A model generated the notes under the pieces. It saw only the letters and a list, made by a program, of their open reading frames with translations, was not told the origin of the DNA and searched no databases. DNA of 58,907 nt from Catajapyx aquilonaris (taxonomy: Eukaryota). Position numbers and translations under genes: made by a program. The stretch spans positions 124,001 to 182,907 of the forward strand of contig KZ537987.1 in NCBI GenBank assembly GCA_000934665.2, given 5' to 3'. This document shows, one piece after another, positions 27,047 through 58,907 of this stretch (within the stretch, counting starts at the first letter, position 1; the number at the start of each line of letters is the position of its first letter).

Positions 27047-27056
27047 GGTCGTAAGC

Positions 27057-27411: not shown

Positions 27412-27459
27412 CTGTACAGATGAATTAAATGAAACTACCACTGCTTCTGCGTTGTCCCA

Positions 27460-30122: not shown

Positions 30123-30200
30123 TCTATCTCCGGCCCTAATATGCCCGTACTAATACTGATTATTATGGGTTGTGTGAAATTTTGACAACTGATTCACTAG
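30123..30200 (+). mobile_element. Internally deleted relic of the same Helitron-like family
   Basis: Ends aaattttgacaactgattcactag|t at the same position relative to EcKL copy 3 as the element next to copy 1. The 5' boundary is uncertain. Confidence 0.55.
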
Positions 30201-30301
30201 TGGGTATATATAAAACGAAAAATGTAACGTGCAATTACTTTTATTTGACACTATATAACTGGCAACTATTAATTATAGAGGAAAACGCAACAAAAATGGT
30301 G

Positions 30302-31555: not shown

Positions 31556-33440
31556 GGTCGTGTAAGCCTAGAACTGGTTTAAAATCGTGTGAAAGTTACG
31601 AATGTTGGCATCACCTATGAATGTCTGGTTGGTGCTCATTATGTAAAATAAGCTAAAAAAGCCAGTACCTGCACAGATGAAATAAATGAAGCTTCCCACT
31701 GCTTCTGCGTTGTCCCAGATTGTGACTCTAGAGTCTAGACCATTTTTGGTTATCATCTTATCGTAAAAGTGGCTTTTATCAGTGAAGTACAGCATGAGGA
31801 ATGTTAAGAAAACAAGTATAAAATAACATCATCTCTCTGGGTTGCATTGCAAAGTACAGAATATTATTGCATGAATGTGGTGGCGTTGTTTACTTACGTA
31901 TTGAACACAGGTAGCACAATGTGCATTATAATGTTATTTTAGCCAAAATATGATATATGTACTTTTAGAGCAGACTACAGTACTACCTGTATACAGTTAG
32001 AAAATTCTGTATCAAACCCAATTTTTTAATTGCCGCACTGGAAGAGTTACGAAAACACACTATTAATTTTCCATATTGGGAATATTGCATAAAAATTTCT
32101 GGTGAAACTATTACATTTTTTTCCCCTCCTGCTTGGTAATTACTAAAAATCGAATCATCTACCTCCATCCATGCCCTGTACTGTGCCGCATCGTTGCTAA
32201 AGTTTTCATGTGAAAGTACGGCCCCCCTGTTATTTTTTTTTTTATTTATTTTTTATCCCCCGTCTCCTTGCGCCATGAAATTACAAAGCATATCATATAT
32301 GCCTTAATGGAGTTGAGGAAATGAGTATGGAATTTTTAATAGGATTTTTGCCTACGGAAATTTGTGCTGTTGTATTACTAAGTTTGCTGAATAAACGAAT
32401 TTTTGCAAAATTATAACATGTTTTTAACTGCCAGTACTGCACGTCATGACTATGTTACAGGGTTTTAAAAAATCCTGACTGTTCAGGGTCTCATGTGCGT
32501 TTGAATTGCCTAACTGCCAGGATAATTTTATTGTTTACTTACTGTGCAATGTTTGCTGAAGTGAGCACTGCTTCACTCTGTACATTCTCATTCTATTAAA
32601 GGTCACAATGTCAACCACTTCCCATAATGCTTCGTTGTCCAGAGGAGGAAAAAAAAAAGCCTTTATCTGAGGAGCTGCCACGTGCATCTGGGGTGTCCCC
32701 CCAAAATTTCATTACCAGATGAATTACGGTCCCCGCCAAGCAATTATTTTTGCTCTGTCATGTGTTAATTCCGATTAAAGTGTTGCAATGTGGGTACGGA
32801 GGGGGGAGTATATGTTGAGGGGGAGAGGAGGGAAGTATATATTCATTAGGGTTATGAGCCCGACTTTATAGAAGTCAATTGTACACAGTTCATGGCCAGA
32901 TGGACTCGTACCGCAATGTTTGTGCTTCCAATGTTACAAAAAGCGGTATGGAGTGGGACCTCCAATTGAAAACCACTCGTCTCTAGTCCCCCCCCGCAGT
33001 TTTTGATTGTCCCCGCAACTGGTCTGAAATGACTCGTTTTGAGGATTCCCATGCAAGGTACTCCCCACACAGAGAAGGTTTTTACCCTAATTAAACTCGT
33101 TTAAAATCTGCGCAGACGGTTTGATTAAAAGTTTCCCCCCTTCCTGGCCCCGCCATTTTGATTGAGGCTTTATAGTCTTGCTTGGACACTAGATGGATCG
33201 AATTGGTCGCCTTTTTGACACACCAAATCCCCCGGTTAAGACAATCCCATTGCGGATAGTGCCACCTGATAATTAACTGCTCTATTTTACCGGGGTTGAT
33301 TGGACGACTGTTTTTACTGCCCACTGGCTTTAACGTATAGGTAACTCAAAACTTGAGTTAATTAGGGCTACTTAAGCTCATTGTACGAAGGGTGTCCCCC
33401 TGAATTTTTTGTATTTTGGAGTTTAAACTATTCTTGAATA

Positions 33441-41379: not shown

Positions 41380-41701
41380 GTAAGTGCAGGGGAAAAAAAG
41401 CAGATTGCTAATCCGATTACTTTTCACTATTTTTGGGGCTAAAACAACAGAGGGGGGGATATATATCTAAAGAGAGTGCGCGAAGATGATCTGTAATTGA
41501 TAGTTTATGGGCCCTCGTCTTTTGAAGGGCTGATAAAATATTAATTCTTAATCCGAGGAGTGCTGGCGATAATCCTTGGCAGCGGATTAGGTCTAGTTCC
41601 AACTCCCTTCTCTTTCACTCCTAATTTTATTACGGGCAACGCTGAGAGATTTTCTCATTCCCCTGCAGCTGTGTTACTTACATCATGTTAATATTTTCCA
41701 G

Positions 41702-42169
41702 TTGGGTGTGGTCTTCCTGGAGCAAGGGAAGGCGTCACAGGCTTTGGCATACCTGGACAAGGCTCTGGAGTTTGACCCTGAGCATGAGCAGGCTTTGCTG
41801 AACTCAGCCATCCTGATCCAAGAGATGGGTCAACCGGAGCTGAGGAAGGTGGCCAACGAGCGTCTCCTGAAGTTGCTTCAGAAGGATGAGAAGAACGAGC
41901 GGGTCTACTTCAACCTGGGTATGCTGGCCATGGATGACCAGGACTTCCAGGGTGCGGAGAAATGGTTCAGGAAGGCAGTGGAGCTGAAGGAGGACTTTCG
42001 GAGCGCCCTGTTCAACCTGGCCTTGCTTCTCTCTGACGACCACCGACCCCTTGAGGCTGCCCCCTTCTTGAACCAGCTGGTCAAGCACCATCCAGACCAC
42101 GTCAAGGGGCTCATTCTGCTTGGGGATATCTACATCAATAACATCAAAGACTTGGAGGCCGCTGAGAGT
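41702..42169 (+). CDS. TMTC3: TMTC3-like exon (multiple TPRs)
   Basis: ttccag|TTG...AGT|gtaag, 156 codons. Encodes LGVVFLEQG...FRSALFNLALLL...HVKGLILLGDIYIN. Confidence 0.92.
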
Positions 42170-43213
42170 GTAAGTCTCAACTCGGAGCCAAAAGGATTAG
42201 GGGGTCCAGGGTCGCTGACCACTGCTTTTGATCCCGCAGGAATATTCATGCTCGTTGTTGTGGTTTGCGCTATGTAAATAATTTATCAACATTAGAGATC
42301 AGGGTCGGAGTTTAAAACACAAGCTGCAGGCATGTTTGCATAATCTTTGCCAGCTAATTTATTGCCAGGAAAAGGTGGGACCTGCTGATATTAATTACAC
42401 ACATTTTGTTCAAGAAAAGTGTAGGTTTGTCGTGGAATATTTTTTGTGTGGAAGTTGCAGCTTGCAGGTGGTTAATTTCAAGGGAGCAGCTCCATTATTT
42501 TAATCAGGGCACTGGAAGCTACAGTACATTTTCTTTGTGTCCTAAAAGAAGGTTGTGAAGCTACAGTAAATATTATAATAGCAAAAGTGTTACGTTAATA
42601 CACACCTAGTTGCTCCAGTTATAACAGCACATTGTAAAAATACAGTCAGGGCATGTTAAAAGTGCAAATGGTTTCTTAACTATATGTACGTGACAGTAAT
42701 GACTTTTTCACATGAGTAACTGGGAATATCTTGAACCACATTGTGTTTGTCGGTAGAGAACTACTGATCTGGACAACTAGTTGAACCTAGTAACGTGCAA
42801 ACTGCACAAGAATTGGCAGCTCAGGCTCTGCTGGTCTCCCTGCGCACTAGCTCAATTCCACCTTTTGATTGTATTGGCATCAGAAGTAATGAAAGTTGAA
42901 GCTGCCAGAAATGATTACATAACTTCCTGTCAGTTTCCGATAGCTGCCTTTGTAGGCCAATGCACTAAAGTTGATGAACTTTGTGGTCTCATATGACCTC
43001 GTTAGAACCAAAATTTGACATACAATTAATCTTTTGTGTAGGTACGTCACAAGCAACAATGTTTTCCTATCTTTGGTGAATACCCATACATATTCAGAGA
43101 GGGAATTTTATACTTTGCATTATAATTAAATATTATTTTTGCCATTTTTATGCCGTAAGAGAAATTTTGTGTCTCACAGTGCACAGTACTGATACCTGTG
43201 TGTTACTTTCCAG

Positions 43214-43528
43214 TGCTACAGGCGCATCCTTCAGCTGGACCCCGAGAATGTGCAAGGACTACATAACCTGTGTGTGGTGTACGTGGAACGCGGTGAACTC
43301 CTAAGGGCTGAGTCGTGCTTGGCTCAAGCCCAGCAAATGGCCCCCCACGAGGACTACATTGGGAGGCACCTCAAGATAGTGAGGTCGCGAATAGTGCGAA
43401 ACACTCCTCCCTCTCCGACACCTTCAGCGTCTTCTCCGAGTAGCTCGCAGCAGCAGGAGTCTGAAACCTGCTCGGAGCCAACTATCTTCCAGGCAACCTT
43501 GAGCACCGATAGCAAGCCTGCATCTTAG
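43214..43528 (+). CDS. TMTC3: TMTC3-like terminal coding exon
   Basis: ttccag|TGC. Encodes [27 protein letters not shown], then a Ser/Pro-rich tail to TAG. The eight exons join in frame to about 597 aa. Confidence 0.9.
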
Positions 43529-46104
43529 CAGTTAAACGTCACCCAGTGGAATTTGACAAACTGGGGGTGATGTGCTAAAATTTGTGAAAAAAAAAGGGTT
43601 GGTTGCCCCCCCTTTGCCCCCCTGAATTATTATTTTTTGTATTAATTTTAATCCCCCCTGCTCCCTTCCAAACAAGAGTAGTTGTGTCAGTGTTTATTAT
43701 AGCGCACAGCCTAACTTTCGAAACGACTGTGATTTCTGGTTTTTCGTTTGTTTGTGGCGGGGTTGGTAACACCAGTGCTAATTTGGCCTAACTAATAACA
43801 TTAGTAATAATGACAGGACATTTTTTTTCTCATCCAAAGGGGGTGTATAGTCAATATTGGTGCCTTGTACAGTTTAAAAAAAAAAATAGATAATATAATT
43901 GAAGAGTTTTTTGTAATGAGGAAGTATTTTTGTAAGCGCGTCTCTCATGAGGTCACAACTATTTGTGCTATAGATTTGAAGTGTACAAAGTGATTGTTTT
44001 AATTCTTTCATATTATACCTTTGTTATGTTCGAGGATGAGAAGAGAAAGTACAGAGGGTACTTTTTTTGAGAGGTAATTTTTATATGAATTTGGATTATT
44101 GTAGATGAAACGGAAGATTTAAATGAGAGATGTGGCGAGGATTGAGCTGAAATGTCAAACCGTAAGGAAGGGAAAAACTTTAAATTAACAATAACCTGAA
44201 AAAATGGTAGACTCACAATAAAATTATGTTTTTTTTTAAAAAAATGGCAGGTTCTACCGCTATGGCTACTTAAAAATACCTAGAGGCATTAAGAATTATA
44301 GAAGTTATCCGACATGGAAAGAAAGAAAATAAAGCTGCTTCATTACCAATAATATTGTGAGGAAGGAATAACTGAGTGATTGATTGATTTGTTGTCACAT
44401 GTGGGTGTGTAGAGTGTTACTGTCCATAGAACCTGGAAACCATTTTGGGGAAAGCAATGACCGGTGAAGAGAATTTTAAAAATTAACTTGCTTATTTTCT
44501 GTTGTGGATAAAAAAAAATATTCCTGTGACTCGGGTAGGGACTTGAGATGTATTTTGTTTACATGTTTACTTGTTTGTCCACCTTCGTTCTCCCCTACCT
44601 TCCTCTGCCACCTGGTCATTGGTTGAATTTGTGTGTGTGATGAGAGATAAAGGTCTGATGGATATTTGACCTTCAGCAATGTTATATTGAGCTGAAGAGT
44701 AAAAAAGCTAAAAAAATAAAAAAAACTGGCAGTAACCATGTCCATTGATTCATGTTGTCTGTGATACGAGAATAAATAAGCATAACATTTTCGTAGCACC
44801 AGTAACAGTGTGTCTGTGTTTATTCATTTGAACCCATTTTCATGCAGGATATGTGCACGGTGATGGTAATGTTTGGGTTAATATTTTTTGATTATGCTGT
44901 TAAATCTGAGTGTCTAGTAAATTGAGGAGCTCGTTGAATCAGGTGTCCACTTGGTAATGTAATTGTGATTGGAAGGCTGTACTTCTTCCTAGGAAAAAAT
45001 TATGGTTACAAAGTGCAATTACAAGCAATCAGAATCAGAAGTACACTTGAAAACTGAGTGGTTTCCCTGTGACCAAGAGCATGTTATACTTCGCTTTTTT
45101 TGCAACACCTTCTAGACAAGCATGATCCGTATGTGTACGATAAATTGAAAAAGTACCACGTTGGACCAAAATATTGCGACATGAATTTAATTTATAATTT
45201 CATCTTAATTGTGATTCATGTTTAATCTCTGACACTTTAAAAGGTAAAACTCTGCACCATAATGTTATTGTTAATTCTTGCTTTGGAGCCGCATTTAGTC
45301 TGCTGTTCAAGTTTTGTGCAAATAGTTTCTTTTTTTATGGCTAATAATCTTCTAGAAATGAAAACCTAATGAAGGTGAGTTAATTAGCTTAAGTAAATTC
45401 TGAGTTAAATTCAACTCTTCCTCCCTTGAATGCTTAAACTGTGATTGGCATTGTGTAGTTGAAGGCCTGCTTACTTTAGCAATAACATTGGCACTCCAGC
45501 TGGCTATCCAAATGAGCCAATTCTGATGGGTGCTATTAAACTGGGTAGTAATTTTATGATGCAGCCAACAAGCCCAGCTGTAGTTTATGAGTTATTACAG
45601 TAATTATATTAGCATAAGTGGTTATTAGGCATCCACATGCAGGACAGAAATGACCCAAAATAAAGAATAATTCAACCTCAAAATTGGTTTAACTGGTATT
45701 TTCCCAAGTTCAGTTTGCCACTCAGGGTCATGCATGGGCTGTAAAGAAAAACGTGTTGTGGGGATAAAACTTTTTGGCTGGCAGTAAGGGAATTTTCTAC
45801 TCGAAATAATTTACCATTGTCACTTCTAAATGAGTCGTAGGAAGGTGAAAATTGCCAAACTGGTAGCCTCTGACACTGAATCTCAAGTTTTAATAGTCAA
45901 GTTCAAGAATAATATTGTTTTTGACTTCGTTTGACACATTTCGAACAGTTCCTAGGAGGCTACGTGGCGTCTATCCGAATGCTATGGAAACCAGAACTAA
46001 ACAGACGCCATGTCTGTTTAGTTCTGGTTTCCATAGTTTTCATCATTTATTCTATCTTTTTCTAATCCCTTCAAGACCCCCCTGCTTGTTCGTGGTGAGG
46101 AGAC

Positions 46105-46285
46105 ATGGCCACCGAACCACCAACCTCATCGTTGTCCCACATTGTGTTCCTCCTGGAACGAAGCCTGGCTCAGACAGACAGGATTGAGAGGACCATGGCA
46201 GATATGGACAGGAGGATGGCCAGGATAGAAGGGTGCATCCTGAAGGAACAGGAAAGGAGGAGGAGAAGGACTCATCATGATGAAG
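46105..46285 (+). CDS. C2H2 zinc-finger gene copy A, exon 1 (heptad and basic N-terminal domain)
   Basis: gacATGG start, GAAG|gtttg donor, phase 1. Conserved in paralogs at 51420 and 57645. Confidence 0.75.
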
Positions 46286-46381
46286 GTTTGCTGAAATGCA
46301 GAGTTGGGAATTCAAGCCCTTAATTATGCCCATTGCCTTTGTGGGAACATAATATACTGTTGCTCTCTATACTCTATACAG

Positions 46382-46506
46382 AAGTGCATCATGAAAGAAG
46401 CTCTGATGTGACTATTGAAGATCATCAGTCAGAGCAGCATCCACATCCAGGGACGTCTGCAAGTTTTGATGTTCTTGGAGGAAATGGAGGGCAGGCTGAA
46501 GAACAA
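46382..46506 (+). CDS. Zinc-finger gene copy A, exon 2
   Basis: tacag|AA...CAA|gtaag, phase 1 to 0. Conserved in paralogs. Confidence 0.72.
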
Positions 46507-46524
46507 GTAAGCAACTCTCTAGAG

Positions 46525-46787
46525 CAGTGGTTCCCAACATGTGGGTTGAGACCCCCTTGGGGGTCGTGAAGCCTTTTCCGGGGGGTCACATGGTGGTAAT
46601 TTTTGCAATGCTTTATATTAGTACCGCGAAGGTTTTTAAAATGTTTTAATACGAGTATATATACGTATGTCTACACGACATACATCAATCTTCTACTAAT
46701 ACTTGGACGAGGAGTGGGGGGGTGGGTCGCAGGTTACTTGACTATCATAAAAGGGTGTCGCGACCTGAATAAGGTTGGGAACCACTG
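46525..46787. mobile_element. hAT-type MITE
   Basis: 14-bp TIRs CAGTGGTTCCCAAC / GTTGGGAACCACTG, with a degenerate 8-bp TSD (ctctagag / gtcttgag). Confidence 0.85.
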
Positions 46788-46828
46788 GTCTTGAGAATGT
46801 GCTTTGAGGCTGATATACAGGTACTCCT

Positions 46829-47080
46829 GGGCGACACGGTGGCCGAGTGGTTAGCGCCTCAGCCTTCCACCTCTAAGGTCCTGAGTTCAATCTCCAGGTC
46901 GGAGAGGAGATACTTATGTGGGTAGAGTTTCGTTGGGTTCTCTCCATGTTTGCGTGGGTTTTCTCGGGGTTCTCCCGTTTCCTCCAGCAATCAAAATCCA
47001 TCACAGCGCAGGCAATGATTAAAGTTGGGTATTTAAGAGATGATCCCCTAAGAGGCGCAAGGAGGTTATCACAGGGTATC

Positions 47081-47141
<61 letters not shown>
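46829..47141 (+). mobile_element. tRNA-derived SINE with V-SINE-like core and (TTA)n tail
   Basis: A box TGGCCGAGTGG, B box GAGTTCAATC, core GTTTGCGTGGGTTTTCTCGGGG, a TTA tail and a 13-bp TSD tacaggtaYtcct. Confidence 0.88.
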
Positions 47142-47763
47142 TACAGGTATTCCTCGTTTTATGCCAGAGATTGGTCCAGAGATATTTGTCCATGGAAATT
47201 TATTGCTATTTCCATGTTCCTAAGTCATTCGTAACTCATAGTGGGCATTCATTTTGTCTTTGATTTGTTTTTGACCTCGGTGCAGTCAAAAAGCCAAAAT
47301 CCTCAAATATAGCAGTTTTTCCCAATCCAGTGGACCTACATGTTGCTAGACCATCTGCTGAAAATAATCACCAATTTGGGAATCAGAGAAATAGTGTGGC
47401 TGACAGGGAATTGTTGCTTCTGCAATGCCTGATGTGCTCCCATGGCACAGTCAAGCTGCCAAAAGTGTGGAACAGTAGCAACAACAGCTTAGAATAACTG
47501 GTTTATTTATTCTGGGGAAAAAGCCAACTCAATTTTAATATCTCAAATTCAGATAAGTAAGTAATCAAGTAAAGCATTCTTCACCTTTTCTTAATTACCA
47601 CAAACCACTGTGGCCTACATGAGGAGGACAAGCATAGCCCATTGTCTCTACACATGTTGATTTGTTACTTTCTTATGTTTTGCAACTTAATTTTGCATGC
47701 TGGTTTAGGGAGATAAAGGGTCTTTTGGCTGTAACTTATTTATATCCATTGATATATCCAAAG

Positions 47764-48501
47764 AACCAGCTGCCATCCAGGGACCCTTTTCAATGTGGCA
47801 TCTGCAACAAGTCTTTCAACATTCCCTCTGCTCTGGAAGAATGTGTCAAATCGCATGCAGTTAGAGTTGAAGAGGAAGAGGTGGTTGGGCAGGCTTCTCA
47901 CTCAGGACAGCAAAACAGCTTTGTGGTGCAGGGAGAATCATTTGAAGGAAGTGCATCTCCAGAGCTCCTCCAGGCAAATGAGACTGAGAGGACCCCATTA
48001 AGATGCGGAAGGGAAGAAAAGGGAGGGAAAGGGGCTGCGAAACCTGCATCGTTCTGTTGCAAACTGTGCTCATATGCTACCAGTGAAAAAGTAGAATTTG
48101 TTTCTCATCAGTTGGTCCATTCAGCACATGGTAAGGTCCGTCCAGGAGGGAGTAAATCAAAAATTTTCTGCAAATTGTGTGATGCCAGCTTCACCACCAA
48201 ATCTGGTCAGTCTGGTCATATGAAAGCTGTTCACCTTCGATTAAAACCTTACCTGTGTGAAGTGTGTGGAATGGCATTCAGCTGTCTGTTTAATAGGAAA
48301 AGGCACAGCATGGTCCACACAGGTGAAAAACCATTCGGTTGTCACGTGTGCCTTAAATGCTGTGGAACAAAATCTGATTTGAATAATCATATGCGCAAAC
48401 ATACAGGAGAAAAGCCATATTCTTGCCAATTTTGCAATCGTAAGTTCAGCGTGAAGCATTACTTGAGTGTGCATGTGCGACGATATCATGCCGCAACTTG
48501 A
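47764..48501 (+). CDS. Zinc-finger gene copy A, exon 3 (six fingers, first atypical); about 347 aa in total
   Basis: ccaaag|AAC acceptor, phase 0. CxxC...HxxxH repeats with TGEKP linkers. Confidence 0.85.
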   Translation, partial: NQLPSRDPFQCGICNKSFNIPSALEECVKSHAVRVEEEEVVGQASHSGQQNSFVVQGESFEGSASPELLQANETERTPLRCGREEKGGKGAAKPASFCCKLCSYATSEKVEFVSHQLVHSAHGKVRPGGSKSKIFCKLCDASFTTKSGQSGHMKAVHLRLKPYLCEVCGMAFSCLFNRKRHSMVHTGEKPFGCHVCLKCCGTKSDLNNHMRKHTGEKPYSCQFCNRKFSVKHYLSVHVRRYHAAT

Positions 48502-48979
48502 ACCTCACTCAATCCTGGGCCATCAGGGGACATTCCCTGGGGGGGAAAAAATTGTCTAGGTTTTGTGTTGTTACAGACGATTGAGGGTATGTTATGGGAA
48601 ATCACATTTCACTACTTCTACTGTATGCTACTCAGAAGAAGCAACTTTAGTTTGCTATTGCATTTAAAGATTTAAACTATTGCAACAGAAAGTTTGATAT
48701 GTACTGAGTTCATTATGACCTGTGTCAAAATGTAAGGACCAGGATAGGCTGACCCTGAGAAAAGACTTGGATGTGGGTTATTATGTACTGTATATAATTA
48801 TGTTGGTGATAATAAAGTTGCTGAGAAATATTTTCAGGGAACATTTGTTAGTGATTTCACTGATTGTATGAAACATTTGTCTATTCAAATATACACATGT
48901 CATGGCTTTCTCCAGCCCACATTGAAGAGTTTTATCTATAATGCCCCTTTCTGTCAATCCCTTGATCAGCAATGTAAAT

Positions 48980-49167
48980 TCGAACAGTTCCTTGGAGTCA
49001 ACGTGGCGTGGCGTCGATCTGAATACCTCGCGTATGTTCTTGTTACTTGATGTTTCCGTCGCTTCTTTTCCTCCCATTGGATTCCCTGCTGAAGGACCAC
49101 TAGTCGGAATTGGTGAGGAGACATATATGGCCACCCAACCACCAACCTTGTTGATGTCCCACATTGG
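48980..49167 (+). pseudogene. Truncated fourth copy of the zinc-finger gene 5' region
   Basis: Shares gaacagttcc...gtcgatc and ggtgaggagacat, and encodes MATQPPTLLMSHI, after which homology stops. Confidence 0.65.
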
Positions 49168-49494
49168 CAACGCGACCGAAACCGTCGACGACCTGTGTGA
49201 ATGGGTCTTTAGCCATTTAAAATGCCTTCCTATCTTTAAAAGTTCTGGACGAGGCTGTACAAATTATTATTATAAATCGCATTATGTCCCAGCCTGTGAA
49301 ATACTGGCTGTTCCAAAAATTTTGTGACGACAAAAGGAGTCTTCGTAAGTCCTTGCTTGTTCACTCGCTTATTGTGGTGGCAGTCTCAAGGAAAAGCATT
49401 TACGCATGCGACACGAATTTTACAGGATGAAGTACAATCATTTTTAACCTCTTGAGGGCCACGGTCTCTGGGATCGTTCCTGGATCCTCCGTGC

Positions 49495-50637
49495 TACCTG
49501 GGGAGGGGGGGGGGGAGGATAACCTCCCTTTCATACACATCCGGAAGTATCCTGGCCTACACCGGAAGCTCCAGCTGGGGTATCATGGTTGGGGTTTCTT
49601 CTACAAGACCATATGGTAGAGGCCCTGCTAGAAACCTATGACCAAATGAGAAGTGCAGGTGTTGTTTTCGAATGATTGTGAGAACAATTGCGGAAATGTT
49701 TTTAAAATCGCTTTATTTGCTTGGTACATGTTAATCTGCATTGTTTCAATAACACATAAATAGTCTCCGATAAATGTTATTCCACATTTGTTGCTTAATG
49801 TATCATTTTTTTCCCCAAGTGTTCCAAGAAAGAGTCAATTGATTCCGACATGTCCTGCTTATTATTCATTCTCTTGGGACATGCTCAAATAGTCGACATA
49901 ATTAGCATTTTTCCTGCTTTATTCCACATGTGGACCTAATATACACCATAACTCTGCAAGTCCACAGCAAAGGCCATGCGAGTATTCATTCTATCCATAT
50001 CCCCTTGTTGGATAGGCATTGGCAACTTCATAACAATAAGCCAGATCGACTACAGTCTTGAATGTCCGGAAAGGAAAAAGTGTTGCTGGCCTTATTTTTG
50101 CGCAAATATTTTACCTCAATATCTTGTTCGACTACAGAAACCACTTGACCTGCTTAGTAAACTATGTTCTTTGCACTGGTACCTGTAGGCTTGAACTTTA
50201 CATAGGAATGGGACGTCCCATACCTCACTTCCCTGCTTTGTCCCATTCCTCCCGAATAGCTCAAAATTGCAAACATGGCTGGCTTGCCTTTACAGAAGTA
50301 AGCATGGCAGACTATCATATCCAGCTTTATCTAAGGAAACATACACCATCCCACAGCTCCTTGTTCGACAAGTCTATCTGCATTAGGCTATATGTAGGCT
50401 ACGTCAAATTGCACTCAAACATTATAACGAAAAGGTACTTTTTAATGCCCAAATCAAGTATTTTGTACCAGGCTGAAAATGAGCTACCTACCTCTCTCAC
50501 TAACTCACAAGCTCAGACTGGAATTGATCCCAGTTGACACCTACCAGTCAATGAGTGCAATCTTGCAAGCACAATAAAGCAGGGATTTTGAAGGTGTCCC
50601 ATACCTCCCCCGTCCCATACCTCCAGACTTCCCCCTA
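49495..50637 (-). mobile_element. Degenerate pogo-family DNA transposon (boundaries approximate)
   Basis: 49936-50203 (-) translates, with a stop and a frameshift, to VKF...Y*AGQVV...EVKYLRK...FSFPDIQD...IVMKLPMP...FAVDL, resembling pogo transposase C-termini. TAGGGGGAAG-like end at 50637. Confidence 0.55.
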
Positions 50638-51419
50638 CCAAGAGCCCCTACTGAGTAGTTCATTATGACCTGTATCAAAATGCAAGGAATAATGCCCTGC
50701 GCATGCAGGAGAAATGAATGCAAGTTAAATGCAACACCGCCAGGACAAGCTGAGCCTGAGAAAAGACTTGGATGTGGGTTATGTACTGTTGGTGATGGAG
50801 TTGCTGAGAAACGTTTTCAGGGAACATTTGTTAGTGATTTCACTGATTTGTATGAAAGACTATTCAAATGCACATGTCATGGATTTCTCCAGCCCACAAT
50901 TGAAGAGTTTGAACTAATTATTAAATGTCACATTAACACAATCAAGTGGACACACACTTATAATAATGATATGCACTGACAAACAGCGAGTTTACATTCC
51001 AGGTTACATATTATTGTGTTGCCTCTCCCGCATGTCATGTGAATAAATGTGATCAAATTGGAAAACATTCAACCTGTTTGGTGACATGGCTGTATATTCA
51101 ATGAAGAGCCTCAATGAAGCTCAAGTCATGTTAATATTTATAATATTTGTTTATAATATTTTAAATGAAAATGCGTATGGTGACATGCAAGCCAGACCGT
51201 GACTTGCATTCCGAACAGTTCCTTTGAGGTGAAGTGACGTCGATCCGAATGCGCCCAACATGGCGTCTGTTTAGTTCTGCCACGTTCTGCTTCTCTCTTC
51301 CTTTTCCTTTCTTTCTTCTCTCCTCTGAACTCCCACCGCTTCGTTTCCTCACTTGCCGGCCTCTGGACAGGCTGAACCTGAATCTCTGCAGTACCACTTG
51401 TCGGAATTGGTGGGGAGAC

Positions 51420-51782
51420 ATGGCCACCCAAGGACACAACTTTTTTCCCCACATTGTGGCCCTCCTGGAGCGAAGCCTGACTCAGTCGGACAGGATTGAG
51501 AGGACCATGGCAGAGATGGACCAAAGAATGGGTCAGATGGACAGGAGGATGACTGAGATGGACCAAAGGATGGCCAGGATAGAAGGGTTCATCCTGAAAG
51601 AACAGGAAGAGAAAGGGAGGAAGAAGAGGAGGAGGAGGAGGACTTCTCATGAAAGAAGCTCTGATGTGACTATTCAAGAAGATGAGCCCAAGCAACATTC
51701 ACAAGGGACTTCTGCAAGTTTTGATCTTCTTGGAGGAAACTTGGGACAGGCCAAAGGACAAGTAAACACTTTGGAGGTAGAG
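51420..51782 (+). CDS. Zinc-finger gene copy B, fused exon 1+2 (alternative donor after 51761)
   Basis: MATQGHNFFPHIVALLERS..., GAG|gtgag donor, phase 0. The intron present in copies A and C is absent. Confidence 0.7.
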
Positions 51783-51939
51783 GTGAGCTGTACATGAATT
51801 TCTGGTCAGCAGAACACCATCCGACTATTTATTATTATTATTATGGAACCAATAACTCAAACACAATGTATGGTGGGGGAATATGCACAGTGGGTGAATT
51901 GCCATGGGGTGAACCTGTATCGGCTAGTCGTAACAGAAC

Positions 51940-52510
51940 CTACCCAGAATAATCACGATCTTTCAGGTTCTTGTTAACATTCAATCATTAAAAGTAACTT
52001 CTTATGTACTGCCAGACATAGCAAGGTTCATGGCATCAAATTGTTTCATATTAGGGAATTGCCAGGGAAAATAAATATGTGCAAAACTTTGAAATTCCAA
52101 TGATCTTTGTACTTATTCCTGAGAGCAGAGTTTACACCAGGTTTACAGTGCATTTCAATGGACTCCAGCTGATATTCATCACTTTTCTGACTGACATCAC
52201 ATGAGAATGGAGACGCAAACAGCTCAAAATCTTTCTCACACAATTTGAAAGTCTGTCATTTCGAATTCAGTAATTAACATTGTGATTATTTTTTTTCATA
52301 AGCATTGAAATTAAGTTCAAGTCCTTGTGCATATGACATTTGGGAATCTCAGAAGCTACATTTTTCCAGACTTCCCCACTGAACCTCATATGAAGGAATT
52401 TGTTGCTTTTCCATCACGAAATCGGTCGATATGTTGGCAATTGTCAGCTTGTTGGAATAGGACCATGGGCTGGAAATACGGTGCCTGCGGGCCGCATGTT
52501 TGAGACCTCT
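51940..52510 (-). mobile_element. Deleted hAT (Charlie/SPIN, GTF2IRD2-like) transposon
   Basis: Terminus CAGAGGTCTCAAACATGCGGCCCGC at 52510 and peptide DFELFASPFSCDV...YQLESIEMHC. Absent from the paralogous site at ~58220. Confidence 0.7.
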
Positions 52511-52549
52511 GGGTCAGAGCATTTCGTACCCATTGTACTCACTGAGGGG

Positions 52550-52729
52550 TCTTCTGTGTCCCGAAACTGCTTCACCCATCTTTCTGATGCTGTGATTGTC
52601 AGGGACTTTGTCGTGGCGTCCCAGCCCAAAATGGTGACAAAAGATCCCTTGTACAGCTATGGGCATCTCATTATTTTTAAAATACATCTCCATGACGAAT
52701 GGATGGTGTTCAGTTGACCATGATGCCAT
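52550..52729 (-). pseudogene. Tc1/mariner transposase N-terminal HTH (DUF4817-like) relic; second copy at 58270-58443
   Basis: MASWSTEHHPFVMEMYFKNNE...FGLGRHDKVPD..IR/WVKQFRDT, with a frameshift. Confidence 0.65.
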
Positions 52730-52827
52730 TATTTGTAAATGGCACATCTTTCCCACTCCTGCACATGCCCATATCCTGGGCATGCACAAACTACAACACT
52801 GTACCACGTGAATCAAATCCTGCTATA

Positions 52828-53245
52828 CAGGGTGAAGGGAAACTCATGAACAGTGGCCAGGTAGACTGATAGTACTCCCAAAACTAATATAGGGACGTGC
52901 AATTAGTTTTGGGCTCCTTTAAAGTGTAGAGGGCCGGATGGTAAATTATGAGGTAAAAACAACAAAGTACATGGGTGTTGTACCCAGATTTTTACTCTGA
53001 CGGCATTTGATCACCTCTGCACATGGACAATGAGTTACGGACCCAAGCCCGGATTGTTCGGAGGCCCTCGAGCTAGCTTTTGCTTCTTTGAAGCTAGCAG
53101 AACGGATGTGGCATCATGAAACTTTAACTGCGTCATCCCCATTAACTACGCAACGGTGCCAAAACAAATTGCACTAACCTGTATTAGTTTAATACTAGTA
53201 CTATCAGTTTACATGGCTATTGTCCAGGAGTTTCCCTTCACCCTG
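52828..53245. mobile_element. Tc1/mariner-type TIR element
   Basis: TA|CAGGGTGAAGGGAAACTC ... GAGTTTCCCTTCACCCTG|TA, imperfect TIRs of about 50 bp. The left end recurs at 58541. Confidence 0.75.
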
Positions 53246-53716
53246 TATAGTTTGCCCAACTCTGGTACTTATGCTTGCTGCAATGTAAAGGCATTTTTCT
53301 GCCATAGATTGAAACTAATGAAGTTTTTTTCCTCCAGGGAAACTGGAAGCAGGAGATGACTGAATTATTGACGGAACAAAATGAAGCAAGAAGCAGTGAT
53401 ATTATTTGCTCCATAAGTGAAATCTCATCCCTCTACCAGAGTAATGAAGTGGCTGATTCCTTCAATGGGCAATCGGAATTGCTTGTGTCTGGACATCAGG
53501 ATGTGAGTATTGCTTTGGAACAACTACAGTATGCATGGTTACTTGGATGCTGCATGTAAGAGAAATAGTGTGGCTGAGAGGGAATTCTTGTTTATGCAAA
53601 GCATGATGTGCTCTCGTGACACAGTCAAGCTGCCAAAAGTGTGGAACAGTAGCAACAATAGCTTAGAATAACTGGTTTATTATTTTATTATGGGGAAAAA
53701 GCCAACTCAATTTTAA

Positions 53717-55746
53717 CCCAGATATGCCTGAAAGATTTTTTGTTTAAATTTTGTTTTTTGTTTGTTTTTATTGGTTCATAATAGTCCCCACAACACAACA
53801 AAAATGATAAAAAAAATTATGGAATGCTAGATTGTAAGAAAAGGGCCGTCCCCTATAGGGGACACTCGGCAAATGTACCATCTAGTATGGAGCCCTATAC
53901 TGCACGAGGAAAACGTAAGATATAGACTGCTGTATTGAAATAAAGATAAAGGTTTAAAAAAAAAATTCATTGAAAAATATAGATAAGGAATGTTATAGCT
54001 AAGACCCAATGTCCTATATATAGGACATCTAATTTTGCAATGAGTGATTGCAACAAAAATATGAAATTCTGAAAAATGGCTTCTACACCTCCACTACATA
54101 AGGTTCTTTCAAAGTATTACTAAATAATTGCACAAATGGCTGCTCGGGTCTCAGGAGGGTATAACGGAAACTTGTTCATTGCGGAATTTTAGATTGACGT
54201 GCTATTCAGGTATGTACAGGTTTCGCTGTATATAAATATACAGTGAAACCTGTCCACAACGGACCCTGTGTATAACTTAACCTTGCCTATTGCGGAATTT
54301 TTCTGGTAACTGGCGTATGAAAATTACACAATTTCCGCTACATTCGACACGGAAATCGTGTTCGTTCCATACGCCAGTTACCAGAAAAAATCCGCAATAG
54401 GCAAGTTTTCGTTATCCACAGGGTCCGTTGTGGACAGGTTTTACTACCCATCTAGCTATATTCAGTGAAACCTGTGCATAGCGGAAATGCGGACTCGAAT
54501 ATTCCGCAATGAACAAGTTTTCGTTATATACCAGGTCCCTTATGGACAGGTTTTACATCCCATCTAGCTATATCAGTGAAATCTGCGCATGGCGAAAATG
54601 CACGGGATGATAAAATTTTCTGTAATGAGCAAGTTTCCGCTATATTCTACGCGGAAATCGTGTACTTTCCATACGCCCGTTACCAGAAAAATTTCGCAAT
54701 AGGCAAGGTTCCGTTATGTTCAGGGTCCGTTATGGACAGGATTCACTTTAGATAAATATGTAGTGAAACCTGTCCATAACGTAGCCTACCCTGAGTGTTA
54801 CACAAACTTGTCCATTATTGCGGAATTTTTCCGGGAACGGGCGTATGCGTAGGACATAAATACCGTGTTGAATATAGCGGAAACGGCTGATATACCGTAC
54901 TAGTCCTTATATTATATATTTATATCCGACATCGTTAAATGGTTCGCGTGCGATCCGCAAAAACAGCACCACTTTTTTTTTCTCCCCCCACTCTCTACCA
55001 CAATGCTTTGCGGCGTTGCAGCGTTCCCTTCCAATCTTACCCGTTTGGTGCTGATGACTAGGAAAATCGTAATTTTCAACGGAAACTTGTCAATTACGAT
55101 TTTTAGGGCACTGTGCTATTCTGCTATACACAGGTTTCACTGTATCCAAAAGCGAAAGTTTGTATGCATGTATGTTTGATTGTACATGGCAGTGGGTTAC
55201 CATAGCTACGAGGGTTCCTGGGTAACCCTCGTTTTAAAAATAGGGATTCATAAAAATTCAGTTCGACAAAACGCACAAAATCCGGACACAGACAGTAGCC
55301 TAGATTACCGGTACTTGACTTGCCGGTCCACATGTGGTGGATTTGCTGAGTGTCCCTCATAGGGGACAGCCGATTTCAACGCCACCCTCAGACAAGGAAA
55401 GTAAAAAATATGCCTATATTTCCACACCGACATCATCATTCATAAGTTTTCTAAGTATTACAAACAAAAAATGACTCACAATGCTAATCAACATTCGAGA
55501 ATTAATTACTAATCGTCTTCGGAACGTGGAGGTGCAGCCATTATTTCATGCGTTAAAATTCAAACTCCTGTATCCTAAAAAATCTGCTGCAATATTGAGC
55601 AGGTTTGAACTTGCATCGTTAGCTGGGACTCTCCTGAAGCCCCCGTGACTACTGCCAGCTCTTTAGCAGCAGAAGAACCTGCGCAAAAAATTAAAATGTA
55701 ACAACTGTGCAGGTGTCCCCTAAAGGGCACACTCGGCATATCTGGG
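53717..55746. mobile_element. Non-autonomous piggyBac-like element (2030 bp)
   Basis: TTAA|CCCAGATATGCC ... GGCATATCTGGG|TTAA. The paralogous intron at ~47535 has a single TTAA (empty site). Confidence 0.88.
54150..55143. repeat. Array of palindromic Tc1/pogo-type MITE units inside the piggyBac-like element
   Basis: Repeated TA-CAGTGAAACCTGT termini in both orientations (for example 54241-54445 and the end at 55142). Confidence 0.7.
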
Positions 55747-55972
55747 TTAATATCTCGAATTCAGATAAGTAAGTTAATCAAGTAAAGCATCCACCTTTTC
55801 TTAATTACCACAATCCACTCTGGCCTACATGAGTAGGACAGAGCATAGCCAATTGTCTCTACACATGTTGATTTGTTACTTTCTTATGTTTTGCAACTTA
55901 ATTTTGCATGTTGGTTTAAGGGGATAAAAGGTGTTTTGGCAGGAGTTAATTTTTATCAATTTCTTTCCAAAG

Positions 55973-56719
55973 AACCAGCTGCCTTCCAGGGACCCTTTTC
56001 AATGTGGCATCTGCAACAAGACTTTCAACATTCCATCTGCTCTGGAAGAATGTGTCAAGTCTCATGAAGTGAAAGTTGAACAGGAAGATGTGGTTGTGCA
56101 GGCATCTCAGTCAGGAGTCTCAGGACAACAAAACAGCTTGGTGGTACAGGGAGAATCATCTGGAGGAAGTGAATCTCCAGAGTATCTCCAGGCAAATGAG
56201 ACTGAGAGGACCCTATTAAGATGCAGAAGGAACGAAAAGGGAGGGAAAGGGGCCAAAAAACTTGCTTCGTTCTCGTGCCAACTGTGTTCATATGCTACCA
56301 GTGAAAAAGTGGAATTTGTTTCTCATCAGTTGGTCCATTCAGCACATGGTAAGGTCCATCCAGGAGGGAGTAAATCAAAAATTTTCTGCAAATTGTGTGG
56401 TGCCAGCTTTGCTACCCAAATTAATCAGTCTATTCATATGAAAGCTGTTCATCTTGGGTTAAAACCTTACCTGTGTGAGGTGTGTGGTATGGCATTTGGC
56501 TGTCCTTCTACTAGGAATAGGCACAGAAAGGTCCACACAGGTGAAAAACCATTCAGGTGTCATGTGTGCCTTCAATGCTGTGGAGCAAAATCTGATTTGA
56601 ATAAGCATATGCGCATACATACAGGAGAAAAGCCATATTCTTGCCAATTTTGCAATTGTAAGTTCGCGGATAATTCTTCCATGCATAAGCATATGCGACG
56701 TTATCATGCCTCAACCTGA
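55973..56719 (+). CDS. Zinc-finger gene copy B, finger exon
   Basis: ttccaaag|AAC acceptor. Intact paralog of 47764-48501. Confidence 0.85.
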   Translation, partial: NQLPSRDPFQCGICNKTFNIPSALEECVKSHEVKVEQEDVVVQASQSGVSGQQNSLVVQGESSGGSESPEYLQANETERTLLRCRRNEKGGKGAKKLASFSCQLCSYATSEKVEFVSHQLVHSAHGKVHPGGSKSKIFCKLCGASFATQINQSIHMKAVHLGLKPYLCEVCGMAFGCPSTRNRHRKVHTGEKPFRCHVCLQCCGAKSDLNKHMRIHTGEKPYSCQFCNCKFADNSSMHKHMRRYHAST

Positions 56720-57644
56720 ACCACACTCAATCCTGAGGTATCAAGGGACTTTCCCTGGAAGAAAATTTTGTGTAGTTATTGTGTTGTTACAGACGTTTGA
56801 GGGTATGGGAAACCACATTTTGCTACTGCCACTGTATGCTACTACTCAGAAGAAGCAACTATAGTTTGTTGTTTAATTTCAACTATTGCAACAAAAAGTT
56901 TGATATGCACTGAGTTCATTAGGATCTGTATCAAAATGTAAGGAATAATGCCCTGCACATGCAGGAGAAATGAAATGCAAGTTAAATGCAACACCAGGGC
57001 GAGCTGAGCCTGAGAAAAGACTTGGATGTGGATTGTGTACTGTGTAAATGTTGGTGATGGAGTTGCTGAGAAACATTTTCAGGGAGCATTTGTTAGTGAT
57101 TTCACTGATTTGTATGAAAGTCTATTCAAATACACATGTCATGGATTTCTCCAGCCCACAATTGAAGAGTTTGAACTAATTTTTAAAGGTCACTTTAACA
57201 GAATCAAGTGGACACTCTTATAATAATGATATGCACTGTCAAACTGAGTTTACATTCCAGGTTATACAGCTTGTGATGTTGCCTCGCTTCATGCAAATTA
57301 TCCTTTTGATCAAATTAGAAGACATTAACCTGTTTGGTGACATGGCTGTATAGTCAATGAAGAGCCCCAATGAAGCTCACGTCATGTGAATATTTATAAT
57401 ATTTGATTATAATATTTTAAATGGAAATGGGTATGGTGACTTGCATTCTGAACAGTTCCTTTGAGGTGAAGTGACGTCGATCCGAATGCGCCCAACATGG
57501 CGTCTGTCTAGGTCTCCTTTTTCTCTCCTTTCCCTTTCTTTCTTCTCTCCTCTGAACCCCCATCGCTTCGTTTCGTCACTTGCCCGCCTCTGGACAGGCT
57601 GAACTGAATCTCTGCAGTACCATTGTCGTAATTGGTGAGGAGAC

Positions 57645-57837
57645 ATGGCCACCCAGGGACACAACTTGCTGCCCCACATTCTGTCCCTCCTGGAACGAAG
57701 CCTGGCTCAGAATGACAGGATTGAGAGGACCATGGCAGAGATGGACAGGAGGATGGCCAGGATAGAAGGGTTCATCCTGAAGGAACAGGAGGAGAAAGGG
57801 AGAAAGAAGAGGAGGAGGAGGACTTCTCATGAAGAAG
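57645..57837 (+). CDS. Zinc-finger gene copy C, exon 1
   Basis: Paralog of copy A exon 1 with the same GAAG|gtttg phase-1 donor. Confidence 0.68.
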
Positions 57838-57920
57838 GTTTGGTGAAATATTCAAGCCCTATCTATGCCCATTGCATTTGCGGGAACATATACAATACTG
57901 TTGCTCTCTATTCCCTACAG

Positions 57921-58066
57921 AACTGCATCATGAAAGAAGCTCTGATGTATCTATCGAAGATCATCAGTCAGAGCAGCGTCTACATCAAGGGACTTCTGCA
58001 AGTTTTGATGTCCTTGGAGGAAACTTGGGACAGGCCAATGAACAAGTAAACACTCTGGAAGTACAG
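57921..58066 (+). CDS. Zinc-finger gene copy C, exon 2 (finger exon presumably beyond the window)
   Basis: ctacag|AA...CAG|gtgag, in frame with exon 1. Confidence 0.65.
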
Positions 58067-58907
58067 GTGAGCTGTACCTGAATTTGTGGTCAGCAGAACA
58101 CCATCCTACTATTTATTATTATTATGGAAACAATAACTGAAACACAATGTATGGTGGGCGAATATGCACAGCAGGTACATTGTCATCGGGTGAACGTGTA
58201 TCTGGCAGGTCGTTACAGAACTCTGGGGTAGAGCATTTCATACCCATTGTACCCATTGAGGGTTCCTCAGTGTCCCGGAACTGCTTCGCCCACCTTTCTG
58301 ATGGTGTGATGGTCGCTGGCTTTGTCGTGGCGTCCCAGCCCAAAATTGTGACAAAAGATCCCGTGTACAGTTATGGGCGGCTCATTATTTTAAAAATAAG
58401 CCTCCATGACGAATGGTTGGTGTTCAGCTGACCATAAAGCCATATTTGCAAATGGCACAACTTTCCCACTCCTGCGCATGCCCATATCCTGCGCATGCAC
58501 AAACTACAACACTGTACCACGTGAATCAAATCCTGCTATACAGGGAGAAGGGAAACTCATGGACAATCACCAGGTACACTGATAGTACTCGCAAAGCTTA
58601 TACAGAGACATGCAATTAGTTTTGGGTGGCGTCGGTGAGTCATTAATACGTGGCTCCTTTAAAGTGTAGAGGGCCGGATGGTAAAATATGAAGTAAAAAC
58701 AACAAAGTGCATGGGTGTTGTACCCGGATTTTTACTCTGACAGGATTTGATCACCTCTGCACATGGACAATGTGTTACGGACCCAAGACCGGATTGTTCA
58801 GAGGCCCTCGAGCTGGCTTTTACTTCCTTGAAGCTAGCAGAATGGTTGTGTCTTCACGAAACTTTGACTGCACCATACCCATGAGGGGTCGTCCATATAC
58901 CACGTGA

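What the first reader, a model, noticed from the sequence alone, without database searches (positions are those of the whole stretch)
46105..58066. Tandem zinc-finger family with an unrecognised N-terminal heptad/basic domain on separate exons
Seen: three paralogs share HI..LLERSL.Q.DRIERTMA.MD.RMARIEG.ILKEQE plus a poly-Arg/Lys tract. In copies A and B this splices in frame to a single exon holding all the fingers. Known: this layout matches KRAB- and ZAD-zinc-finger families, but the domain has no KRAB, SCAN, BTB or four-cysteine ZAD signature that I can see. Inference: it may be a lineage-specific effector or oligomerisation module of an undescribed, expanding zinc-finger family, possibly one that represses transposons.
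Basis: partly seen in the sequence, partly recalled or inferred. Interest (0 to 1): 0.75.

Follow-up and report, generated by a model that had tools for sequence, protein, structure and literature searches.

The report
Zinc-finger gene cluster with coiled-coil head
Three neighbouring copies of an animal zinc-finger gene start with a short, previously uncatalogued helical "zipper" plus a basic tract that probably lets the proteins pair up and enter the nucleus, a modest new variation on a well-known gene design.

Summary
Three paralogous units (A 46105, B 51420, C 57645) and one truncated remnant (48979-49166) start with the same conserved 5' exon. In A and B canonical GT-AG sites join it in frame to one exon that holds six fingers, giving 347 and 362 aa. 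No RNA evidence could be obtained, so support for the junctions is indirect. All reading frames are intact. All six exon indels are multiples of 3, against 9 of 36 in flanking DNA. The finger exon has no Met before finger 3. Copy B has lost intron 1, which fuses exons 1 and 2 in exactly the predicted frame.

The N-terminal module matches no Pfam family. It has no relative among 1.84 billion representative proteins apart from four unrelated heptad-repeat proteins. It is one confident helix with an unbroken heptad register, followed by an Arg/Lys tract. DNA-contact residues differ far more between A and B than the finger scaffold does (11/24 vs 18/104).

Best reading: a coiled-coil oligomerisation and nuclear-targeting head on a locally duplicating, diversifying C2H2 family. 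This is analogous to ZAD, SCAN or BTB but not homologous to them. Family size, expression, and any effector or transposon-repression role could not be tested.

The parts
45937..45982 (+). Copy A: conserved upstream block (CATT..GAACAGTTCCT..GAGG..GTG.CGTC.ATCCGAATGC), about 125-170 nt before the ATG. Possible core promoter or 5' UTR. In A it is followed by a 55-nt palindrome at 45982-46036.
   Evidence: Three-way DNA alignment; palindrome.
46105..46285 (+). Copy A exon 1 (181 nt, ends in phase 1): Met, heptad helix, RRRRR tract. Donor GAAG|gtttgc.
46382..46506 (+). Copy A exon 2 (125 nt, ends in phase 0): acidic, His/Ser-rich linker with the conserved GTSASFDVLGGN motif. Acceptor ..tatacag|AAGTGC, donor GAACAA|gtaagc.
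47764..48501 (+). Copy A finger exon: one atypical finger (Cys in place of the first His), a long spacer, then 5 canonical C2H2 fingers, with the stop at 48499-48501. The acceptor ..atatccaaag|AACCAG is the best of 4 phase-0 candidates.
   Evidence: Pfam PF00096 E 1.9e-13, PF13465 E 2e-18.
48979..49166 (+). Truncated fourth unit. It holds a piece of the upstream block (48979-49009) and the 5' UTR plus the first ~14 codons of exon 1 (49089-49166). Homology then stops.
   Evidence: tblastn; blastn 84% and 90% to unit A.
51207..51252 (+). Copy B conserved upstream block.
51420..51761 (+). Copy B fused exon 1+2 (342 nt, phase 0; alternative donor after 51782). The heptad helix carries two extra heptads from a 21-nt tandem repeat at 51507-51574. 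It is followed by KGRKKRRRRRR and the acidic linker. Intron 1 and 15 nt of coding sequence are absent.
55973..56719 (+). Copy B finger exon (six fingers, stop at 56717-56719). Acceptor ..tttctttccaaag|AACCAG, 15 of 20 pyrimidines.
   Evidence: Pfam PF00096 E 1.5e-15.
57444..57489 (+). Copy C conserved upstream block.
57645..57837 (+). Copy C exon 1 (193 nt, phase 1): heptad helix plus KGRKKRRRR.
   Evidence: AlphaFold2 gives one helix over residues 8-62, mean pLDDT 86.8.
57921..58045 (+). Copy C exon 2 (125 nt, phase 0; alternative in-frame donor after 58066). The finger exon is not in the window.

Best explanation
This is a local tandem array of paralogous animal (probably arthropod-related) C2H2 zinc-finger transcription-factor genes.

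Each protein reads as follows:
- a short variable N-terminus;
- a 39-residue amphipathic heptad helix (53 residues in B);
- an Arg/Lys tract;
- an acidic linker with a conserved GTSASFD(V/L)LGGN motif;
- six fingers.

Most likely mechanism (inferred):
- The helix forms a parallel coiled coil that makes the proteins homo-oligomerise, and perhaps pair with their paralogs.
- The basic tract serves as a nuclear localisation signal.
- Oligomerisation multiplies the DNA contacts of the short finger array, as the ZAD, SCAN and BTB heads do in other zinc-finger families.
- After duplication the copies changed the base-contacting residues of fingers 3-6 while keeping the head and fingers 1-2, so they presumably read different DNA sites.

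Shown: the sequence features, the intact frames, the heptad register, the helix prediction and the lack of relatives. Inferred: splicing of exon 2 to the finger exon, oligomerisation, nuclear import and DNA binding.
For: Gene structure:
- GT-AG sites with matching phases give intact ORFs of 347 and 362 aa.
- The finger ORFs have no in-frame Met before finger 3 (first Met at residue 195 of 288 in A, 171 of 264 in B). The well-conserved fingers 1-2 therefore need an upstream coding exon.
- B lacks intron 1, and its exon-1 and exon-2 frames run on as one ORF in exactly the frame the A and C splice would produce.

Coding constraint:
- All six distinct exon indels are multiples of 3 (9, 3, 15, 42, 3, 15), against 9 of 36 in adjoining introns and flanks.
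- Random substitution at the observed density leaves the frames open with P = 0.029 (finger exon), 0.28 and 0.25 (N-terminal exons), product 0.002.
- The + frame 0 is the only stop-free frame of the finger exon and has the lowest pN/pS in the B-C and finger comparisons.
- NG86 dN/dS is 0.44-0.66.

Head:
- AlphaFold2 gives one helix over residues 8-62, with 41 of 64 residues at pLDDT >= 90.
- The 3.5-residue hydrophobic periodicity is reached by 67, 0 and 58 of 5000 shuffles for A, B and C.
- There is one unbroken register with LIVMF at 8/11, 12/15 and 8/11 a/d positions. The later e positions are acidic and a g position is basic.
- B's insertion is exactly two heptads, from a 21-nt repeat of 3.2 copies.
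- 41 of 64 positions are invariant.

Fingers:
- Pfam PF00096 and PF13465 score above their cut-offs.
- Contact positions -1, 2, 3 and 6 differ at 11 of 24 sites, against 18 of 104 scaffold sites (Fisher p = 0.0055). All 11 lie in fingers 3-6.

Precedent: ZAD heads homodimerise (PMC7913770, start of abstract in the search listing).
Against: - No transcript evidence of any kind was obtained.
- Exons are no better conserved at the nucleotide level than adjoining non-coding DNA (86-88% vs 88-92%). dN (0.12-0.20) is about equal to or above the flank divergence, so the substitution-based evidence for constraint is weak.
- Within the helical core, pN/pS is 0.34-0.97 and no pair is significant.
- The A-C exon-1 frame test was uninformative (pN/pS 0.92).
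- Several alternative in-frame acceptors and two donors exist.
- The oligomeric state was not tested, because the complex-prediction tool never ran.
- A single amphipathic helix could equally dock on a partner protein.
- Only three copies are visible.
Confidence: 0.55

Rival explanations
1. The head is mainly an effector (repression or activation) module. The helix or the conserved GTSASFD(V/L)LGGN motif recruits a cofactor, as KRAB recruits TRIM28. The family would then be a fast-evolving transposon-silencing system. This does not exclude oligomerisation.
For: - The layout of small 5' exon(s) plus one finger exon in a tandem array resembles KRAB, ZAD and FiNZ families (PMC10547256 passages).
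- Contact residues are diversified (11/24 vs 18/104).
- dN is at or above flank divergence outside the core.
- The linker is acidic and carries an invariant short motif.
Against: - There is no match to any known effector domain.
- Only 3 copies plus 1 remnant are visible.
- No expression or target data exist.
- The transposon link is pure analogy.
Confidence: 0.2
2. Exons 1-2 are a separate small gene for a coiled-coil protein of about 113-125 aa. The finger exon belongs to another transcript whose 5' exon I did not recognise.
For: - In B and C the frame runs 12 codons past the CAA|gtaa donor to a stop, so an intron-retaining short product is possible.
- Intron 2 is 1257 nt in A but 4211 nt in B, and its content differs.
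- No junction reads are available.
Against: - In both complete units the order, strand and phases fit.
- No other conserved ORF lies between exon 2 and the finger exon. The shared intron blocks are no better conserved than the flanks and have no Pfam match.
- The finger exon lacks its own start codon.
- The whole unit was duplicated together.
Confidence: 0.13
3. The copies are young, unexpressed or decaying duplicates (pseudogenes). Their open frames are residual, and the 'domain' has no function.
For: - Exon identity is no higher than flank identity.
- A truncated remnant sits in the array.
- No homolog exists elsewhere.
Against: - Indel lengths preserve the frame (6 of 6 multiples of 3, against 9 of 36 in flanks).
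- The finger exon has one indel in 738 nt, while the flanks have 36 in about 2340 nt.
- Absence of stops has P ~0.002 under random substitution.
- Amino-acid changes are non-random and concentrated at contact positions.
Confidence: 0.08

Closest known systems
ZAD-C2H2 zinc-finger proteins of arthropods (Pfam PF07776)
   Same: An N-terminal protein-protein interaction head sits in front of a C-terminal finger array. The genes lie in tandem clusters, expand within lineages and diversify quickly. ZADs homodimerise (PMC7913770, start of abstract seen in the listing).
   Different: ZAD is a zinc-binding fold held by four cysteines. This head has 0-1 Cys, no PF07776 match, and is predicted as a single heptad helix.
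KRAB-ZNF (tetrapods) and FiNZ-ZNF (cyprinid fish)
   Same: A short lineage-restricted N-terminal module lies on its own small exon(s) ahead of one finger exon. FiNZ is likewise a short sequence (28 aa) with no similarity to known domains (PMC10547256, passages read).
   Different: There is no KRAB match. FiNZ is described as Glu-rich, whereas this head is a Met/Ile/Leu-cored heptad helix with an adjacent Arg/Lys tract. Those families have hundreds of members and documented early-embryonic or transposon-linked roles; here only 3 copies are seen and no function is known.
SCAN and BTB/POZ heads of vertebrate zinc-finger proteins
   Same: These are helical oligomerisation modules at the N-terminus of C2H2 proteins (established knowledge, recalled).
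   Different: They are globular multi-helix domains. No PF02023 or PF00651 match was found.
Cavin-1 (PTRF) HR1 coiled coil, PDB 4qkv
   Same: It is the best solved-structure sequence match. The alignment is ungapped over 39 residues at the same distance from the N-terminus. That HR1 is a coiled coil is recalled, not tested here.
   Different: E = 0.067 is not significant, and Pfam found no cavin family match. I treat this as coiled-coil resemblance, not homology.
bZIP transcription factors
   Same: A heptad zipper lies next to a basic tract.
   Different: The order is reversed: the basic tract follows the zipper. The core is Met/Ile-rich rather than Leu-rich. Pfam gives no bZIP match, and DNA binding is expected from the fingers.

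Membership tests
C2H2 zinc-finger proteins (PF00096 / PF13465) | Tandem C-x2-C-x12-H-x3-4-H fingers with TGEKP-type linkers | tested here: met
   PF00096 E 1.9e-13 (A) and 1.5e-15 (B), and PF13465 E 2e-18 and 4.7e-18, all above their cut-offs. Five canonical fingers plus one with Cys in place of the first His are listed.
KRAB-ZNF | KRAB box (PF01352) encoded upstream of the fingers | tested here: not met
   Pfam scan of the exon-1 and exon-2 translations at E<=1: 0 families for A and C, and 8 sub-threshold unrelated families for B.
ZAD-ZNF | ZAD (PF07776) with four zinc-binding cysteines | tested here: not met
   No PF07776 match. The head holds 1 Cys in A and none in B or C.
SCAN-ZNF / BTB-ZNF | SCAN (PF02023) or BTB (PF00651) domain | tested here: not met
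   No match at E<=1.
FiNZ-ZNF | Similarity to the 28-aa Glu-rich cyprinid FiNZ sequence | tested here: inconclusive
   No FiNZ profile or sequence was at hand. phmmer of B's head against 1.84 billion representatives returned 4 hits, and the three whose sequences were fetched and read contain no zinc fingers. I cannot confirm that FiNZ proteins are in that library.
Coiled-coil oligomerisation domain | Continuous heptad repeat with hydrophobic a/d positions in a helix | tested here: met
   Periodicity at 3.5 residues is reached by 67, 0 and 58 of 5000 shuffles. There is one register with 8/11, 12/15 and 8/11 LIVMF at a/d. AlphaFold2 predicts a helix over residues 8-62.
Coiled-coil oligomerisation domain | Self-association | not testable with these tools
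Cavin (PTRF/SDPR) | Significant match to the cavin family or its HR1 region | tested here: not met
   The PDB profile search gives a best E of 0.067. Pfam finds no cavin family at E<=1.

The most novel reading that the evidence does not exclude
The 39-53-residue heptad helix plus basic tract is the signature of an undescribed zinc-finger-associated domain. It would define a large, lineage-restricted, rapidly diversifying C2H2 family in a poorly sampled arthropod-related lineage. That family would be a coiled-coil counterpart of KRAB, ZAD and FiNZ, whose members pair through the head and track fast-changing targets such as transposons.
Probability: 0.2. Interest if true: 0.6.

Novelty: new variant of a known kind. 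Interest (0 to 1): 0.35.

Why it matters
C2H2 families with lineage-specific N-terminal heads (KRAB, ZAD, SCAN, FiNZ) are the main examples of fast transcription-factor evolution. Each new head shows another way in which finger arrays gain partners.

A head that is nothing more than a short coiled coil plus a basic tract would be the simplest such solution. It would also be easy to test. The natural two-heptad length variant in copy B offers a built-in probe of pairing specificity between paralogs.

The value depends on the family being larger than the three copies seen here and on its being expressed, and neither could be checked.

Tried and rejected
Expression and genome context:
- RNA evidence: the look-up of sequencing runs (kind rna, 46090-56089) listed no RNA holder.
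- Own genome: none is held, so the family size is unknown.

Searches for relatives of the head:
- The search for homologous proteins, longer proteins: none at E<=0.001 among 224 candidates.
- phmmer against 1.84e9 representatives: 4 hits at E 1e-5 to 8e-5. The three I fetched (P0122-P0124) are heptad-repeat proteins matching the MD.RM repeats of B. P0121 was not inspected.
- ESM Atlas: best scores were 0.82 and 0.81, within the range that shuffled proteins reach.
- NCBIfam: only noise at E>0.06.
- Metagenome contigs (291 pattern matches) and viral contigs (95 pattern matches): none confirmed by tblastn.
- Earlier findings of this scan: nothing relevant.

Finger exon search: the best 120 of 1476 hits are generic zinc-finger proteins at 26-53% identity, and none is a close relative with an N-terminal model.

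Structure:
- PDB profile search: cavin-1 HR1 at E 0.067, rejected as homology.
- Foldseek of the helix model against the PDB: 0 matches.
- Complex prediction (two copies of the head): the queue was full on every real try and the tool was then declared unavailable. No result exists.
- The second structure job (B exons 1+2 with fragments, alignment A3) failed twice and the machine then stopped answering. Disorder of the exon-2 linker is therefore only inferred from its composition.

Other checks:
- Antisense ORFs opposite exon 1 (for example 51138-51698, 186 aa) are open but have no support from pN/pS.
- AATAAA signals are no more frequent than chance in the window. One lies 310 nt after A's stop, and none lies on the + strand after B's stop.
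- tRNA and Rfam scans of the SINE-like intron sequence found nothing.

Literature: two full-text searches found no zinc-finger-associated coiled-coil head of this kind. The library cannot be searched by sequence, so this is weak evidence that the domain is unpublished. I did not look at the supplements of PMC10547256, where other lineage-specific N-terminal motifs might be listed.
Full report
**What the window is**

No whole genome is held for this window, and the tool says the source may be a eukaryote.
- The left 44 kb carries TPR-repeat exons on the + strand. PF07719 scores E 1.4e-16 at 41597-42277, and weaker TPR matches lie at 14170-14538 and 43193-43528.
- Three tandem single-ORF ecdysteroid-kinase-like genes lie on the - strand at 25778-31567. 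PF02958 scores E 3e-58 for the middle one.
- The best database relatives of the kinase gene at 30302-31555 are beetle and bug proteins at only 22-31% identity.
- I infer an animal from a poorly sampled, arthropod-related lineage. I did not try to go further.

**The observation**

Stop-to-stop ORFs and tblastn of each copy against the window show three units on the + strand. Each unit's exon 1 finds the other two. The two finger exons, 47764-48498 and 55973-56716, match each other at 77-79% amino-acid identity. Nothing else in the 58.9 kb matches, except 13 residues at 49127-49165.

A self-comparison shows that whole units were duplicated:
- A 46093-48938 aligns with B 51408-57178.
- B 50657-53142 aligns with C 56913-58882.
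- B and C share a long intron 2 that A lacks.

A sensitive blastn shows that the 49127 hit belongs to a truncated fourth unit. It keeps a piece of the upstream block (48979-49009) and the 5' UTR plus the first ~14 codons (49089-49166).

**Gene models**

I read the sequence directly and checked it by script.
- A = 46105-46285 / 46382-46506 / 47764-48501, 347 aa.
- B = 51420-51761 / 55973-56719, 362 aa.
- C = 57645-57837 / 57921-58045, with the remainder beyond the window.

All introns are GT-AG, and the phases agree between copies (phase 1 after exon 1, phase 0 after exon 2). The start context GAGACATGGCC is identical in all three copies.

Two uncertainties remain.
- B and C have a second, stronger-looking donor 21 nt downstream (after 51782 and 58066). 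It is also in frame.
- Each finger exon offers several phase-0 acceptors. The conserved ..ccaaag|AACCAG has the best pyrimidine tract: 15 of 20 in B and 11 of 20 in A.

**Are the exons real and joined?**

Direct evidence is lacking. What I have is indirect.
1. B has no intron 1. Its exon-1 and exon-2 reading frames are contiguous, in exactly the frame that the A and C splice would create. This is a natural confirmation of that junction.
2. The finger ORFs contain no in-frame Met before finger 3. Yet fingers 1 and 2 are the best conserved, with 0 of 8 contact residues changed. They must therefore be translated from an upstream exon.
3. Every exon indel between copies is a multiple of 3. There are six distinct events: 9, 3, 15, 42, 3 and 15 nt. 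In the adjoining introns and flanks only 9 of 36 indels are multiples of 3. The finger exon has 1 indel in 738 nt, while about 2340 nt of non-coding alignment has 36.
4. Random substitution at the observed density would leave the frames stop-free with P = 0.029, 0.28 and 0.25, a product of 0.002.
5. Of the six frames, + frame 0 is the only stop-free one in the finger exon. It also has the lowest pN/pS there (0.60) and in B-C exon 1 (0.29).

Some results weaken this.
- Exon nucleotide identity (86-88%) is not higher than that of flanking DNA (88-92%).
- NG86 dN/dS is 0.44-0.66, but dN (0.12-0.20) is as large as the non-coding divergence.
- Within the helical core, pN/pS is 0.34-0.97 and never individually significant.
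- The A-C exon-1 frame comparison was uninformative.

The reading frames are clearly maintained. The amino-acid sequence outside a few blocks evolves fast.

**The head**
- Forty-one of 64 positions are invariant among the three copies.
- With this shallow alignment, AlphaFold2 predicts one helix over residues 8-62. Mean pLDDT is 86.8, and 41 residues score at or above 90.
- Hydrophobic periodicity at 3.5 residues is reached by only 67, 0 and 58 of 5000 shuffles for A, B and C.
- A single heptad register runs through the whole core:
  - a = L, T/S/N, M, M, I.
  - d = I, S, I, M, I, E.
  - The first two e positions are hydrophobic and the later ones are E, D, E.
  - One g position is Arg.
- B carries 14 extra residues from a 21-nt tandem repeat (3.2 copies, 51507-51574). 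That is exactly two heptads, so the register is kept.
- The helix is followed by RRRRR (A) or KGRKKRRRR(R) (B and C). From general knowledge this looks like a monopartite nuclear localisation signal.
- Exon 2 encodes an acidic, His/Ser-rich stretch with the invariant GTSASFD(V/L)LGGN.

**Is the head known?**

No family or relative was found.
- Pfam at E<=1 gives nothing for A and C, and eight sub-threshold, mostly coiled-coil-type families for B.
- NCBIfam gives only noise.
- The word-indexed search over longer proteins found none.
- phmmer against 1.84 billion representatives gave four hits at E 1e-5 to 8e-5. The three I inspected are heptad-repeat proteins that match B's repeated MD.RM units.
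- ESM Atlas scores stayed at or below 0.82.
- A PDB profile search put the cavin-1 HR1 coiled coil first at E 0.067. The alignment is ungapped over 39 residues, but I treat it as coiled-coil resemblance.
- Foldseek found nothing.
- Scans of metagenome and viral contigs found no relative.
- The finger exon finds only generic zinc-finger proteins at 26-53% identity. No annotated ortholog with this head exists in that collection.

**The fingers**

There are six fingers. The first has Cys where the first His should be and is identical in this respect in A and B. The second stands alone after a ~70-residue spacer. The last four are linked, with TGEKP-type linkers between fingers 4, 5 and 6.

Between A and B the canonical contact positions (-1, 2, 3, 6) differ at 11 of 24 sites, against 18 of 104 scaffold sites and 21 of 117 sites outside the fingers. 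Fisher p is 0.0055 against the scaffold and 0.0027 against all other sites. All 11 changes lie in fingers 3-6. This is the pattern expected when duplicates acquire new DNA specificities.

**Interpretation**

My reading, at a confidence of about 0.55, has three parts.
- The head is a coiled-coil oligomerisation module with an adjacent nuclear-targeting tract.
- It sits on a young, locally duplicating C2H2 family.
- It works like ZAD, SCAN or BTB heads without being related to them.

ZAD homodimerisation and selective heterodimerisation between close paralogs are documented (PMC7913770, start of abstract in the listing). FiNZ is a precedent for a short, lineage-restricted head with no known similarity (PMC10547256, passages).

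The nearly identical cores of A, B and C suggest that they could pair with each other. B's two extra heptads may favour B-B pairing. Both points are inference.

The rivals are given in the Rival explanations section with their odds: an effector role, a separate small gene for exons 1-2, and decaying duplicates.

**Left open**
- Expression and junction usage were not tested.
- Family size in the genome and its relatives is unknown.
- The oligomeric state was not tested, because the complex predictor was never available.
- Disorder of the linker was not tested, because the second structure job failed.
- No link to transposons was tested.

Noticed in passing
window 25778-31567 (- strand): Three tandem single-ORF ecdysteroid-kinase-like (EcKL, PF02958) paralogs of 421-429 aa lie among the TPR-repeat exons of a + strand gene (14170-43528). 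The best database relatives of the one at 30302-31555 are only 22-31% identical (insects).
   Followed up: partly
window 52514-52822 (- strand); homologous DNA in C at 58217-58882: A weak DUF4817 helix-turn-helix match (E 0.0013, 18.7 bits, below the 22.6 cut-off) lies antisense in intron 2 of copy B. It is probably a decayed transposon fragment. B and C share this DNA, so it predates their duplication.
   Followed up: partly
window 48979-49166: A truncated fourth unit lies between A and B, holding only an upstream-block fragment plus the first ~14 codons. A duplicated 3'-flank piece (48739-48938 ~ 50740-50916) lies nearby. Together these are signs of unequal exchange in the array.
   Followed up: yes
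window 45982-46036: A 55-nt near-perfect palindrome (91%) is inserted in the conserved upstream block of copy A only.
   Followed up: no
window 54160-54884: A cluster of inverted and direct repeats (70-84% identity) with a foldback-like structure lies inside the ~2-kb stretch of B's intron 2 that A lacks.
   Followed up: no
window 46830-47140: A tRNA-like, SINE-looking stretch (..GGTGGCCGAGTGGTTAGCGC..) is followed by a long (TAT)n microsatellite in intron 2 of copy A. ARAGORN and Rfam report nothing there.
   Followed up: partly
window 51138-51698 (- strand): A 186-aa open frame lies antisense to B's exon 1, with shorter ones opposite A and C. They are open because of codon composition, and the substitution pattern gives them no support.
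   Followed up: yes
window 47385-47538 and 53559-53716: An intron-2 block is shared by A and B at 90.5% identity. In both copies it has a short ORF ending ..TVKLPKVWNSSNNSLE-stop. It has no Pfam match and is no better conserved than other non-coding DNA.
   Followed up: partly
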